This document shows positions 32,774 through 35,180 of a stretch of DNA of 60,068 bases, in pieces. Position 1 is the stretch's first letter; the number at the start of each line of letters is the position of its first letter. A program made the translations under genes and the position numbers. Under the pieces are notes generated by a model. The model saw only the letters and a list, made by a program, of their open reading frames with translations. It had not been told where the DNA came from and searched no databases. This stretch comes from a phage, in the sequence record PZ445425.1; one strand, given 5' to 3'.

Positions 32774-32978
32774 CTTCTACACCTTTAATATTACAAGGAT
32801 TAATTGTTACATTTGACATCACAATTGGATGATTGCGTGCCCCGATTGTACTAACGTGATTAATATCTAATTCTACATGCACTCCCTGCATGGTAGCGTG
32901 AGCAATTGCAGAATTAAGTTTTTCTACCAGCTCAGTGATCATTTCCTGATGCTGTTTCGCTTCTTCTAAAGTGATCAT
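32766..32978 (-). CDS. hypothetical small protein
   Basis: 70-aa ORF between queC and queE. Confidence 0.35.
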   Translation of the reverse strand: MITLEEAKQHQEMITELVEKLNSAIAHATMQGVHVELDINHVSTIGARNHPIVMSNVTINPCNIKGVEDE

Positions 32979-33685
32979 TATTCCACCCCAATATATTTGT
33001 GAACCTGAAGCTGCAACGTGTACCCGTGTTTCATACAGCTTTGGACAACCGCTTGGATGTTACTGTGGTTAAGATCTTCATCCTGCTCGTCCATTGGCTG
33101 TAAATATATCTTACCCTTGAACCCCTTCGGAGGTCTAGCGATAAATGGCGTAGCTTGATGATCTAATGCTTGAAGAGGTAAACCGTCTTCCACGTTTACA
33201 CAGCACGCTTTAAGTACATATTTAAATGCATTAGCGCGGTACAGCACAGAAGGATGAATCTTTGAAGTCTTGGGACTACATACAATCACAGGTAACTGGG
33301 AAAAGTTCTTAGGTAAAGGCATAGACCCATTCGTTTCAATCTGTACAAGATACCCGCGCGATAACAGTTGTTCAATAAACGGGTTAATTTGCTGACGGAA
33401 CGGTTCACCCCCAGTAATAACCACAAGTGAGGTGCTATTGCCTGATTCCAGCTTACGGCTTTCGATTAAACGCATGATATCAACAATGTGGTAAAGAGAA
33501 CGACCAACAGTATAATCCGTGTCGCAGCCCGGGCATTGCAGGTTACATCCAGCAAGGCGCACAAATACCGCAGGTTGACCGCAGAATGGACCTTCACCCT
33601 GAATGGTAGAGAATACCGAATGCACGTCTAAATACATATCGTTTTCTTTAGAACGAGACTCGGGAGCTTGTTGATTAATATTCAT
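32978..33685 (-). CDS. queE: 7-carboxy-7-deazaguanine synthase (radical SAM)
   Basis: CNLQCPGCDT cluster typical of QueE. Confidence 0.8.
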   Translation of the reverse strand: MNINQQAPESRSKENDMYLDVHSVFSTIQGEGPFCGQPAVFVRLAGCNLQCPGCDTDYTVGRSLYHIVDIMRLIESRKLESGNSTSLVVITGGEPFRQQINPFIEQLLSRGYLVQIETNGSMPLPKNFSQLPVIVCSPKTSKIHPSVLYRANAFKYVLKACCVNVEDGLPLQALDHQATPFIARPPKGFKGKIYLQPMDEQDEDLNHSNIQAVVQSCMKHGYTLQLQVHKYIGVE

Positions 33686-33708
33686 CTTAAATCCTCTAGT
33701 GAAAAAGA

Positions 33709-33730
33709 AAGCGCCTCATTGGGCGCCTTC
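33709..33730 (-). terminator. weak terminator-like hairpin
   Basis: gcgcc / ggcgc stem with T-rich tract on minus strand. Confidence 0.3.
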
Positions 33731-33754
33731 ATTATAACGTGATATGTTTTGATA

Positions 33755-34567
33755 TTACAAGCCGTTCAAAGCTTCCGGTACTGGCACAGGTACGCGACCA
33801 GTTACACCATTAAATTTCTTCCAGCGTGCATATTGGGTTTTAACGGTATCTTCGTTCAGACCATGCCGACCAGCCAGGTTCAGAACATAAGAGATCGGAG
33901 CAGGCTGACCCAGCGTAGCGCTAATCTGGTCCATCAGAGCCCAGGCACGACCGCAGGAAGTTTCCGGTTGTGGGCGACGAACACCGTTCTGTTCCGGCAT
34001 ACGATTAGCTTCTTTTTCTTTCTCGCGGAGCTCTTTAGCGCGTGCTTTTTCCGCTTCTTTTTCTGCCTGTTTTGCAGCACGGATCTTGTCTTTGAAGCCT
34101 TTAATAGTAGCTTCCAGACCATCCACCAGACCCTGGGCAGAAGTTACAGCACCGGACAGGTCTTCACCTTTAGACTTCTTAACGACAGCTTTCAGCTCTT
34201 TCAGAGCTTCTTTAATGGTCTTCAGGTTTGCAGATCCCTGAGTTTCTGCTTCCGTGATTTGTTCAACAGTGCTTTCGTCGGTGACGGTAGCCAAAGAGTT
34301 TTTCAGGATTTCAGCAGCGTTAGCAATCGCATTAAATTTGTTTTCCGCTTCAGTGCGGATTTCAGCTTGTTTCTTTTCAGCGGCAGCTTTTTTCTCTGCT
34401 TCTTTTTTCTCTTTTGCTACGCGTGCAGCTTCAGCGGCAGCGGCTTTCTTAGCTTCTGCATCATTCACAGTAGCTTCTTTCTTTGCAGGTTTAGCAGATT
34501 TTGCAGCGGCAGCAGCGGCAGCAGCGGCAGCGGCTTTTTTATCTTCAATGTTGCTCATTCTCTTCAC
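33755..34567 (-). CDS. Ala/Lys-rich low-complexity protein, possibly histone-H1-like DNA-binding
   Basis: 270 aa with poly-Ala and AKKA/EKK repeats plus a C-terminal globular region. Confidence 0.45.
   Translation of the reverse strand: MKRMSNIEDKKAAAAAAAAAAAKSAKPAKKEATVNDAEAKKAAAAEAARVAKEKKEAEKKAAAEKKQAEIRTEAENKFNAIANAAEILKNSLATVTDESTVEQITEAETQGSANLKTIKEALKELKAVVKKSKGEDLSGAVTSAQGLVDGLEATIKGFKDKIRAAKQAEKEAEKARAKELREKEKEANRMPEQNGVRRPQPETSCGRAWALMDQISATLGQPAPISYVLNLAGRHGLNEDTVKTQYARWKKFNGVTGRVPVPVPEALNGL
34503..34534. repeat. GCN trinucleotide repeat (encodes poly-Ala)
   Basis: gcagcggcagcagcggcagcagcggcagcggc. Confidence 0.7.
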
Positions 34568-34685
34568 TCCGAATTGTTATGGGTTCGTTTGTTACCAACG
34601 GGGTTAAATGTACCAAAGGATTTTGTGACACGCAACCCCTTATCTGAATATTTTTAAAAATATTTTTGATCGAGCTTAGAACTTA

Positions 34686-35180
34686 CTAACTCTTTGCCCC
34701 TCTGCCCGGTGTCCATGCAGCTTGCAATGCGGGTTGCTCACAAACGACCCTGGCACCGGAAATAATACCACCCTCCCGTTCAGCATCGTATTTGACACGG
34801 GCAGGTTTCCAAAGTCCTTCATCCATTGACGGAACGTATTGCCCAATTTGAGGTGAGCAAAAGCCTTGGATATCGTATTCCACACAGAATTCGGCTTGTG
34901 CGCTGATTTGGGCGTGATCCATGATTGTTTCTGGAAGTTGCGTAAAGTAATCAAACAAAATGCGCTCAACGATTTCCCGTTCATAAGGTGCCGCTCCTAA
35001 ATTTTCTGTCAAGTTAATATAAAGCATTTGAAGATCAACATCTTCAAGATCGTGTAAATCGTCTACTGGTGTTACCAGTGTTGACTCAGGGCAACAAATA
35101 ATTCCAAGTTGGTGTAGTGTCAGCCAATTGGGGTGCTTTGCCAAGAGTTCAAATTTATCTGTATCAATTAGGACGTACAT
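34686..35180 (-). CDS. hypothetical protein
   Basis: 164-aa ORF; overlapping track ORF 34676..34984 judged spurious. Confidence 0.5.
   Translation of the reverse strand: MYVLIDTDKFELLAKHPNWLTLHQLGIICCPESTLVTPVDDLHDLEDVDLQMLYINLTENLGAAPYEREIVERILFDYFTQLPETIMDHAQISAQAEFCVEYDIQGFCSPQIGQYVPSMDEGLWKPARVKYDAEREGGIISGARVVCEQPALQAAWTPGRGAKS

What the first reader, a model, noticed from the sequence alone, without database searches (positions are those of the whole stretch)
33755..34567. Ala/Lys-rich low-complexity protein with an expandable GCN repeat
The protein has poly-Ala and AKKA/EKK repeats reminiscent of histone-H1-like proteins, encoded partly by a 32-nt (GCN)n tract (34503-34534) that could vary by slippage. 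It sits next to the modification and replication genes, so it might coat modified phage DNA.
Basis: partly seen in the sequence, partly recalled or inferred. Interest (0 to 1): 0.45.

Follow-up and report, generated by a model that had tools for sequence, protein, structure and literature searches.

The report
Conserved winged-helix protein beside deazaguanine genes
The gene is real and its alanine run does change length between phage isolates, but the conserved part is a small, basic, probably DNA-binding domain of an uncharacterised protein family that always sits just upstream of the DNA-modification genes in this phage lineage; it is not a histone H1 relative.

Summary
The window is a Seuratvirus (Queuovirinae) coliphage, 99.8% identical here to phage GottfriedDienst. 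The ORF on the minus strand is real: 267 aa from ATG 34558, with a GGAG ribosome site and its own terminator. The 11-Ala run (34502-34534) is real and varies among isolates (10, 11, 15 or 16 Ala), always in frame.

The histone-H1 reading is mostly not supported. The Ala/Lys/Glu arm is charge-balanced (15 K, 2 R against 10 E, 2 D in residues 1-70). There is no linker-histone or Hc1/HC2 Pfam match. Virion proteomics of two relatives did not report the homologue.

The deeply conserved part is a C-terminal domain of about 70 aa: a beta-hairpin plus three helices, basic, with weak fold matches to winged-helix domains. The family is large (1973 cluster representatives), phage-only and absent from Pfam and NCBIfam. 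Every locus with enough downstream DNA had queE directly downstream, and helicase plus a partner gene upstream wherever upstream DNA was held. Relatives have paralogues, tandem domain copies and fusions with the partner gene.

Best guess: a DNA-associated targeting or architectural factor of the replication and 7-deazaguanine module. It is not required for base exchange. Function remains untested.

The parts
33755..34558 (-). CDS, 267 aa plus stop. The alternative GTG start at 34567 gives 270 aa.
   Evidence: ORF list. 99.8% DNA identity to the GottfriedDienst bas21_0049 hypothetical protein. PHROG 11298, E=3e-112. dN/dS 0.13 against CAjan.
34567..34570 (-). GGAG ribosome-binding site, 8 nt upstream of ATG 34558
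   Evidence: Read directly from the sequence. Conserved in all 9 Seuratvirus copies compared.
34502..34534 (-). (GCN)11 tract encoding Ala9-Ala19. Its length is polymorphic among isolates.
   Evidence: TRF. 10, 11, 15 or 16 Ala in nine isolates; the long alleles arise by a 15-nt duplication.
34349..34558 (-). N-terminal Ala/Lys/Glu-rich arm (residues 1-70): ampholytic and predicted helical
   Evidence: 76% A+K+E, net +5. AF2 helices 4-20 and 32-90. dN/dS 0.02-0.04 within Seuratvirus.
34079..34348 (-). Middle helical region (residues 71-160). It is the fast-evolving part and is present only in the Seuratvirus/Nonagvirus-type long forms.
   Evidence: AF2 helices 32-90, 98-128 and 135-184, pLDDT above 90. 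61-73% amino-acid identity and dN/dS 0.20-0.30 between Seuratvirus species. Absent from the 160-200 aa homologues.
34001..34078 (-). Second Ala/Lys/Glu-rich helix (residues 161-186) leading into the C-terminal domain
   Evidence: 77% A+K+E. Part of AF2 helix 135-184.
33779..34000 (-). Conserved C-terminal domain (residues 187-260): beta-hairpin QNGVRRP plus three helices, winged-helix-like and basic
33707..33730 (-). Intrinsic terminator-like hairpin followed by a T-run, 25 nt after the stop codon
   Evidence: Terminator scan: 9-pair stem with 6 GC pairs, tail TTTTTCACTA.
34571..34685 (-). Conserved 5' leader / intergenic region containing the hairpin GGGGUUG...CAACCCC
   Evidence: Nearly invariant among Seuratviruses whose CDS is about 85% identical. 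RNA fold z=-2.1. No sigma-70 consensus site on this strand. Unique in the window.
34686..35180 (-). Upstream partner gene (164 aa, PHROG 7864). It is fused to this protein's family in some relatives.
   Evidence: PHROG 7864, E=4e-61, covering positions 1-163 of 242. The rest of that profile is the same C-terminal domain. Fusion proteins P0089, P0173, P0189, P0196, P0197, P0257 and P0156. P0089 was seen on 9 contigs with the same synteny.
32978..33685 (-). queE, the invariant downstream neighbour and first gene of the queE-queC-queD-folE-dpdA block
   Evidence: Annotation of GottfriedDienst. queE lies 70-800 nt downstream in 79 of 80 IMG/VR loci and 7 of 8 genome-collection loci; the two exceptions lack downstream DNA.

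Best explanation
The gene encodes a soluble, non-virion protein of the phage's replication and DNA-modification module. It has two working parts.

1. A small, basic C-terminal domain of about 70 aa, made of a beta-hairpin and three helices and resembling a winged helix. It most likely binds nucleic acid, probably phage DNA, through a conserved structural feature rather than a phage-specific operator. This is inferred from how little its putative recognition helix (TxxTQYARWKKF) changes across phages of very different hosts.

2. A long helical arm built from Ala/Lys/Glu-rich helices plus, in Seuratvirus, a variable helical middle region. The arm would act as a spacer, oligomerisation element or partner-binding element.

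The same C-terminal domain is attached to different N-terminal parts in two or three neighbouring paralogues in related phages. It also occurs in two or three tandem copies, and fused to the product of the upstream gene. I therefore read it as a shared targeting module that tethers partner domains to the DNA being replicated and modified.

Shown here: gene reality, architecture, conservation pattern, synteny, repeat polymorphism. Inferred: nucleic-acid binding, the tethering role, and any link to 7-deazaguanine.

The poly-Ala length variation is an in-frame by-product of a slippage-prone or duplication-prone GCN tract. It changes helix length by a few residues and cannot switch expression.
For: Architecture and confidence: the AF2 full-length model has mean pLDDT 91.6, with helices 32-90, 98-128 and 135-184, a hairpin at 189-194 and helices 201-249.

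C-terminal domain:
- Invariant or near-invariant residues in 84 diverse sequences.
- 1973 cluster representatives at E<=0.001 and 877 at E<=1e-10.
- Basic in all 39 members tested (net +1 to +7).

Modularity:
- Tandem two- and three-domain proteins, and fusions with the upstream gene family.
- A second paralogue 1.3-1.7 kb upstream in about half of the 80 loci.

Context: the order helicase, partner gene, this gene, queE-queC-queD-folE-dpdA, clamp holds in every locus that has enough flanking DNA.

Selection: dN/dS is 0.01-0.04 in both the arm and the C-terminal domain, and 0.2-0.3 in the middle region.

Expression signals: GGAG site, its own terminator and a conserved leader.

Not a virion component in two relatives.
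Against: No biochemical data exist for any member that I could find.

Several of the matched winged-helix domains (RPA32, cullin WHB, MCM) bind proteins rather than DNA, so a protein-protein role fits equally well.

The strict synteny may simply reflect a conserved backbone in one phage lineage. DpdA-carrying mycobacteriophages, Cellulophaga phages and Dp-1 lack the family.

DpdA works without this protein in E. coli.
Confidence: 0.45

Rival explanations
1. Histone-H1-like coat. The protein binds along 7-deazaguanine-modified phage DNA, using the Lys/Ala arm for charge neutralisation, and compacts or shields the DNA.
For: It is basic overall (pI 9.4, net +9). A winged-helix-like domain plus an Ala/Lys-rich arm loosely mirrors linker-histone architecture. 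It co-occurs one-to-one with the Queuovirinae-type dpdA cluster: Escherichia 40/40, Vibrio 23/23 and Enterobacteria 8/8 records.
Confidence: 0.1
2. Transcription regulator. A winged-helix activator or repressor that controls the downstream queE-dpdA-clamp-polymerase operon or the phage's middle genes, as the inherited 'transcriptional activator' label suggests.
Against: The FtrA label has no support: no Pfam or NCBIfam hit. The putative recognition helix is nearly invariant across phages of Escherichia, Pseudomonas, Vibrio, Rhizobium and Synechococcus, whereas operator-specific regulators usually co-vary with their sites. Tandem two- or three-domain forms and several paralogues per locus are unusual for a dedicated regulator. 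The leader motif occurs only once in the window.
Confidence: 0.2
3. Protein-protein adaptor of the replisome or recombination machinery. The C-terminal domain docks onto a conserved phage protein (helicase, clamp, DpdA or the RecA-like ATPase), and the helical arm recruits or spaces a partner.
For: Several of the best fold matches are protein-binding winged helices or RecX: RPA32C, MCM WH, cullin WHB, RecX. Fusion with the upstream gene product points to a complex. The gene is embedded between the helicase/exonuclease/ATPase genes and the dpdA/clamp/polymerase genes. An invariant interaction surface would be expected if the partner is a conserved core protein.
Against: The consistent positive charge of the domain points more towards nucleic acid. 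No partner has been identified.
Confidence: 0.2
4. The poly-Ala/GCN tract is a functional contingency (phase-variation) locus that tunes or switches the protein.
For: Four tract lengths occur among nine closely related isolates, while the flanking residues are invariant.
Against: All length changes are multiples of three, so the reading frame and expression are kept. The tract is absent in Nonagvirus and more distant homologues that keep the rest of the architecture. The differences are fixed between lineages; no within-population data show switching.
Confidence: 0.05

Closest known systems
PHROG 11298 / PHROG 18634 (uncharacterised phage protein families; GenBank 'hypothetical protein' of Seuratvirus, Nonagvirus, Iggyvirus and others)
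   Same: Direct sequence membership: E=3e-112 and 2e-29. Same genomic position in all relatives examined.
   Different: Nothing differs. This is the family, and it has no assigned function.
Eukaryotic linker histone H1/H5 (winged-helix globular domain plus a Lys/Ala-rich tail)
   Same: Loose architectural analogy: a small winged-helix-like basic domain joined to an Ala/Lys-rich low-complexity segment.
Winged-helix domains of MCM (2m45), RecQ (3iuo), RPA32 (9f2a) and ZBP1 Zalpha (9j89), and the three-helix repeats of RecX (3c1d, 3e3v)
   Different: Sequence identity is 3-15%. The beta-hairpin precedes the helices instead of following them. The scores show similarity at fold level only, not homology.
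Plasmid RK2 KfrA (winged HTH plus a long Ala-rich coiled coil) and phage phi29 p16.7 (coiled coil plus a C-terminal DNA-binding domain that organises phage DNA replication). Both are recalled from my own knowledge and were not tested here.
   Same: Same design logic: a small DNA-binding helical domain joined to a long helical or coiled-coil arm, encoded next to replication genes.
   Different: No sequence match: the Pfam scan gave no KfrA_N hit. The orientation differs from KfrA. There is no membrane anchor, unlike p16.7. Neither is linked to DNA modification genes.
FtrA transcriptional activator, plectin, TolA and 'outer capsid protein' (names carried by GenBank and IMG records for this gene)
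   Same: Only the low-complexity Ala/Lys/Glu composition, which attracts spurious BLAST hits.
   Different: No Pfam or NCBIfam support for any of them. The homologue is not found among virion proteins in two relatives.

Membership tests
Linker histone H1/H5 | Globular domain matches the Linker_histone model (PF00538) | tested here: not met
   No such hit with Pfam at E<=1 for the full protein or at E<=5 for the C-terminal domain.
Linker histone H1/H5 | Polycationic Lys/Ala/Pro-rich tail with very few acidic residues | tested here: not met
   Residues 1-70 have K15, R2 against E10, D2. The family mean is 22% basic against 19% acidic. The arm is predicted helical with pLDDT above 90 over most of its length.
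Linker histone H1/H5 | Binds and compacts DNA | not testable with these tools
   Needs gel-shift, compaction or localisation experiments.
Bacterial histone-H1-like proteins (Hc1, HC2, AlgP-type) | Match to Hc1/HC2 models or KPAA/AKKA-type polycationic repeats | tested here: not met
   No Pfam hit. The repeats here alternate Lys with Glu (EKK, AEKK), giving near-neutral charge.
Winged-helix / wHTH superfamily | Three-helix core with a beta-hairpin wing, recognisable by structure comparison | tested here: inconclusive
FtrA-type transcriptional activator (the inherited GenBank label) | Match to FtrA / AraC-type HTH and DJ-1/PfpI-like domain models | tested here: not met
   No NCBIfam or Pfam hit of that kind.
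PHROG 11298 / 18634 | Significant full-length profile match | tested here: met
   E=3.1e-112 over residues 16-267, and E=2.1e-29 over residues 95-259.
Virion (capsid or decoration) protein (the 'outer capsid protein' label in CSP1C) | Detected in purified particles; encoded in the structural module | tested here: not met
   Encoded in the replication/modification module on the opposite strand to the structural genes. The homologue is not listed among the LC-MS/MS virion proteins of Vid5 or R7M. This phage itself has not been tested.
Simple-sequence contingency locus | Repeat-length changes shift the reading frame or promoter spacing and switch expression | tested here: not met
   All observed alleles differ by multiples of 3 nt within the CDS: 30, 33, 45 and 48 nt.
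Accessory factor of DpdA (functional analogue of bacterial DpdB) | Required for 7-deazaguanine insertion into DNA | tested here: not met
   From the literature: phage 9g DpdA with Gat-QueC alone gives dG+ at 9-18% of plasmid G in E. coli (PMC6884629, read). The family is absent from other DpdA-carrying phage lineages. A modulating role is not excluded.

The most novel reading that the evidence does not exclude
The C-terminal domain is a reader or tether for 7-deazaguanine-modified or replicating phage DNA. Together with its paralogues and the fused upstream-gene product, it would organise a replication-coupled modification complex, bringing DpdA and the clamp/polymerase onto nascent DNA. That would be a phage-encoded, linker-histone-like architectural system specific to hypermodified genomes. 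The evidence fits this reading but does not require it: strict one-to-one co-occurrence and adjacency with the Queuovirinae-type que/dpdA block, and a putative recognition helix that stays invariant across hosts.
Probability: 0.1. Interest if true: 0.7.

Novelty: new member of a known kind. Interest (0 to 1): 0.35.

Why it matters
7-Deazaguanine DNA modification in Queuovirinae-type phages is being studied actively, but only the biosynthetic enzymes and DpdA have assigned roles. This family is one of the few other genes that never leaves the module, lying directly upstream of queE in every locus that could be checked. It is large (about 2000 clusters at 50% identity), has no Pfam or NCBIfam model, and carries contradictory labels in GenBank.

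If it binds DNA, it is a candidate organiser or regulator of replication-coupled modification. If it does not, the misleading 'FtrA activator', 'plectin' and 'outer capsid' annotations should still be removed. The poly-Ala polymorphism itself is ordinary.

Tried and rejected
- Pfam, NCBIfam and PDB sequence searches with the full protein, the C-terminal domain and family profiles gave only chance-level hits.
- Foldseek of the full model against the PDB returned only generic helical bundles, none at E<=0.001.
- Foldseek against BFVD returned only uncharacterised family members.
- The AFDB50 library was not available.
- Rfam on the locus gave nothing above gathering score.
- The conserved leader motif is not repeated elsewhere in the window, so it is not a shared phage promoter or operator.
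- The repeat search around the gene found only repeats caused by the low-complexity coding sequence; no iterons were seen.
- Literature searches (Seuratvirus, CAjan, Queuovirinae, DpdA, winged helix) and readings of the Vid5, Seuratvirus genomics, Iggy, R7M, 7-deazaguanine (2019 and 2023), KpAvs2 and TAC papers found no functional statement about this gene.
- The bacterial and archaeal genome collection gave only phage-like contigs with the same module, and no bacterial dpd island context.
- I considered whether presence or absence could separate 'linked to DpdA' from 'linked to the lineage'. It cannot, because the family and the Queuovirinae-type backbone are co-extensive.

Full report
IDENTITY OF THE WINDOW AND THE GENE

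The 813-nt interval is 99.8% identical to Escherichia phage GottfriedDienst (Bas21; Queuovirinae, Seuratvirus). It is 83-99% identical to 32 other phage records. In GottfriedDienst it is bas21_0049, 'hypothetical protein'. That gene lies between QueE (bas21_0048) and a hypothetical protein followed by an SF2 helicase. All are on the same strand, inside the replication and 7-deazaguanine block.

Other records call the same gene 'transcriptional activator FtrA domain-containing protein', 'plectin 1' or 'outer capsid protein'.

The ORF runs on the minus strand from 34567 (GTG) or 34558 (ATG) to the stop at 33755. GGAG at 34570-34567 lies 8 nt before the ATG, so I take ATG 34558 and 267 aa as the product. 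A terminator-like hairpin with a T-run follows at 33730-33707. The 302-aa plus-strand ORF over the same interval is a shadow of the low-complexity coding sequence.

THE OBSERVATION

The poly-Ala tract is real. TRF reports (GCAGCGGCA)x3.2 at 34503-34531 and a period-3 array at 34503-34534. In codon register the tract is 11 Ala codons at 34502-34534. Residues 1-70 and 161-186 are 76-77% Ala+Lys+Glu.

There are 10 Ala in KS_A8, WildeMaa and ECP2304. There are 11 in the window, GottfriedDienst, CSP1C and CAjan. KS_A3 has 15 and Greed has 16. The long alleles look like a tandem duplication of a 15-nt unit. More distant Seuratvirus-like proteins have 7-11 Ala, and Nonagvirus-type homologues have no tract.

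All changes are in frame, so the tract alters a helix by a few residues and cannot switch expression.

WHAT IS CONSERVED

A database search found 225 homologues at E<=0.001. Aligning 84 non-redundant ones shows that the N-terminal part varies in length and sequence. The last 75 residues or so are strongly conserved, with N191, P196, W206, Y243, W246 and G254 invariant. The motif reads MPEQNG(V/I)RRPxPxTxCGxAW...(D)..S...G.P.PI...G.N....(K/R)..YARW(K/R)KFxGxxGR.

A profile of this domain finds 1973 representatives of 50%-identity clusters at E<=0.001, and 877 at E<=1e-10. Some of these proteins carry two or three tandem copies of the domain (P0121, P0122, P0123, P0244). Others are fusions of the upstream-gene family with an Ala/Lys/Glu linker and the domain (P0089, P0173, P0189, P0196, P0197, P0257, P0156).

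PHROG 7864, the family of the window's upstream 164-aa gene, has a 242-position profile whose positions 177-241 are this same domain. The Seuratvirus copy covers only positions 1-163. The fused form P0089 occurs on 9 contigs with the usual neighbours.

No Pfam or NCBIfam model matches the protein, its C-terminal domain or the upstream gene. PDB sequence searches give nothing. PHROGs 11298, 18634 and 21588 match, and all three have unknown function.

STRUCTURE PREDICTION

AlphaFold2 with the 84-sequence alignment gives mean pLDDT 91.6. It predicts a short N-terminal helix containing the Ala run and long helices at 32-90, 98-128 and 135-184. These are followed by a beta-hairpin at 189-194 and three helices at 201-216, 222-231 and 236-249.

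Against predicted viral structures, only uncharacterised family members are found.

The domain is basic in all 39 diverse members tested: net +1 to +7, mean +3.6, mean pI 9.5.

IS IT HISTONE-H1-LIKE?

Only superficially. The arm is ampholytic: K15, R2 against E10, D2 in residues 1-70. Across 119 family members the N-terminal regions average 22% basic, 19% acidic and 30% Ala, with a mean net charge of +3.9. The arm is predicted to form long, confident helices. No linker-histone, Hc1 or HC2 model matches.

Membership nevertheless fails on the features that could be tested.

SELECTION

Between Seuratvirus species (window against CAjan, dS about 0.35-0.9), dN/dS is 0.02 in residues 1-70 and 0.02 in the C-terminal domain. 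It is 0.20 in residues 71-160, and 0.30 there against KS_A3.

The low-complexity arm is therefore not drifting freely at this level. The middle helical region is the fast-evolving part, and the Ala-run length is the only hypervariable feature of the arm.

GENOMIC CONTEXT

- In six distant annotated phages the family co-occurs with queE-queC-queD-folE-dpdA: Pseudomonas Iggy, Vibrio BA3, Rhizobium RHEph04, Achromobacter ART, a Stenotrophomonas phage and Synechococcus Ssp-JY38. In five of the six the gene sits directly upstream of queE and downstream of the helicase block.
- In 80 IMG/VR loci, queE starts 70-800 nt downstream on the same strand in 79. The exception has only 168 nt of downstream DNA. 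The helicase and the upstream-gene homologue precede it wherever upstream DNA exists.
- About half of these loci hold a second paralogue 1.3-1.7 kb upstream, between the helicase and the upstream gene.
- In the bacterial and archaeal genome collection, the 8 hits are all phage-like contigs with the same module, and none is in a bacterial dpd island.
- Among deposited phages the domain occurs in 149 records and DpdA in 236. The counts coincide for the Gram-negative siphovirus lineage: Escherichia 40/40, Vibrio 23/23, Enterobacteria 8/8, Pseudomonas 31/32, Rhizobium 13/14. The DpdA-carrying mycobacteriophages (56), Cellulophaga phages (7), Dp-1 and others lack the family.

The association with the modification genes is therefore absolute within one lineage, but it cannot be separated from shared ancestry.

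PUBLISHED EVIDENCE

I found no paper that assigns or tests a function for this gene. Virion proteomics of Vid5 and of Alteromonas phage R7M do not report the homologue. That speaks against the 'outer capsid protein' label and against a packaged DNA coat.

Phage 9g DpdA plus Gat-QueC expressed in E. coli modify 9-18% of plasmid G (PMC6884629). The protein is therefore not needed for base exchange.

INTERPRETATION

The best-supported reading is a non-virion, probably nucleic-acid-binding protein. Its conserved winged-helix-like domain would serve as a common targeting module, joined to variable helical arms or partner domains, within the replication and 7-deazaguanine module.

The near invariance of the putative recognition helix across phages of very different hosts argues for a conserved target. 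That target could be DNA structure, a modified base or a core phage protein, rather than phage-specific operators.

None can be settled without experiments.

Local signals noted:
- A promoter-like site at 33760-33731 abuts the terminator and could drive queE.
- The 118-nt leader is nearly invariant among Seuratviruses and contains a hairpin with fold z of -2.1.
- The leader has no Rfam match and its motif has no second copy in the window.

VERDICT

The histone-H1 interpretation is largely not supported, although DNA binding remains plausible for a different reason.

The gene belongs to a large, uncharacterised, lineage-restricted phage family. It is best described as a new family within the winged-helix kind. 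Interest is moderate, as a lead for 7-deazaguanine phage biology and for correcting annotations.

Noticed in passing
window 33731-33760 (- strand) and 33707-33730: A promoter-like site TTGTAA-18-TATAAT (10 of 12 matches) ends one base before the terminator hairpin of the Ala/Lys gene. A transcript starting there would begin inside the hairpin and read into queE. This would be a compact terminator/promoter junction.
   Followed up: no
window 34571-34685 (- strand): The 118-nt leader upstream of the gene is almost invariant among Seuratviruses whose coding sequence is only about 85% identical. It folds into the hairpin GGGGUUG...CAACCCC (z=-2.1), has no sigma-70 consensus on that strand, no Rfam match and no second copy in the window.
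   Followed up: partly
window 34686-35180 (- strand); P0089, L103 5001-6143: The upstream 164-aa gene (PHROG 7864) is the N-terminal part of a family that normally ends in the same winged-helix-like domain. Natural fusions of upstream-gene N-terminus, Ala/Lys/Glu linker and domain exist on many contigs, which suggests the two window proteins work together.
   Followed up: partly
window 34079-34348 (residues 71-160): The middle helical region evolves much faster (dN/dS 0.2-0.3, 61-73% amino-acid identity between Seuratvirus species) than the low-complexity arm and the C-terminal domain (dN/dS 0.01-0.04).
   Followed up: partly
L076 8045-8716, and about 40 of the loci L015-L094: Many related phages carry a second paralogue with the same C-terminal domain between the helicase and the upstream gene. 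The Seuratvirus window has only one copy.
   Followed up: partly
GenBank records MZ501071, KP064094, KX534337, PQ202980 and others: The same gene is annotated as hypothetical protein, FtrA-domain transcriptional activator, plectin 1 or outer capsid protein. None of the functional names is supported by profile searches.
   Followed up: yes
window 33749-34657 (+ strand): A 302-aa ORF on the opposite strand spans the whole gene. It is a shadow ORF produced by the GCN/AAR-rich coding sequence. KS_A8 and related records also annotate a small extra ORF over the 5' end of the gene.
   Followed up: partly
KS_A3 (L005) compared with window residues 28-34: Besides its 15-Ala tract, KS_A3 lacks seven residues (EATVNDA) of the arm. 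The arm therefore tolerates small in-frame indels even though its substitutions are strongly constrained.
   Followed up: no
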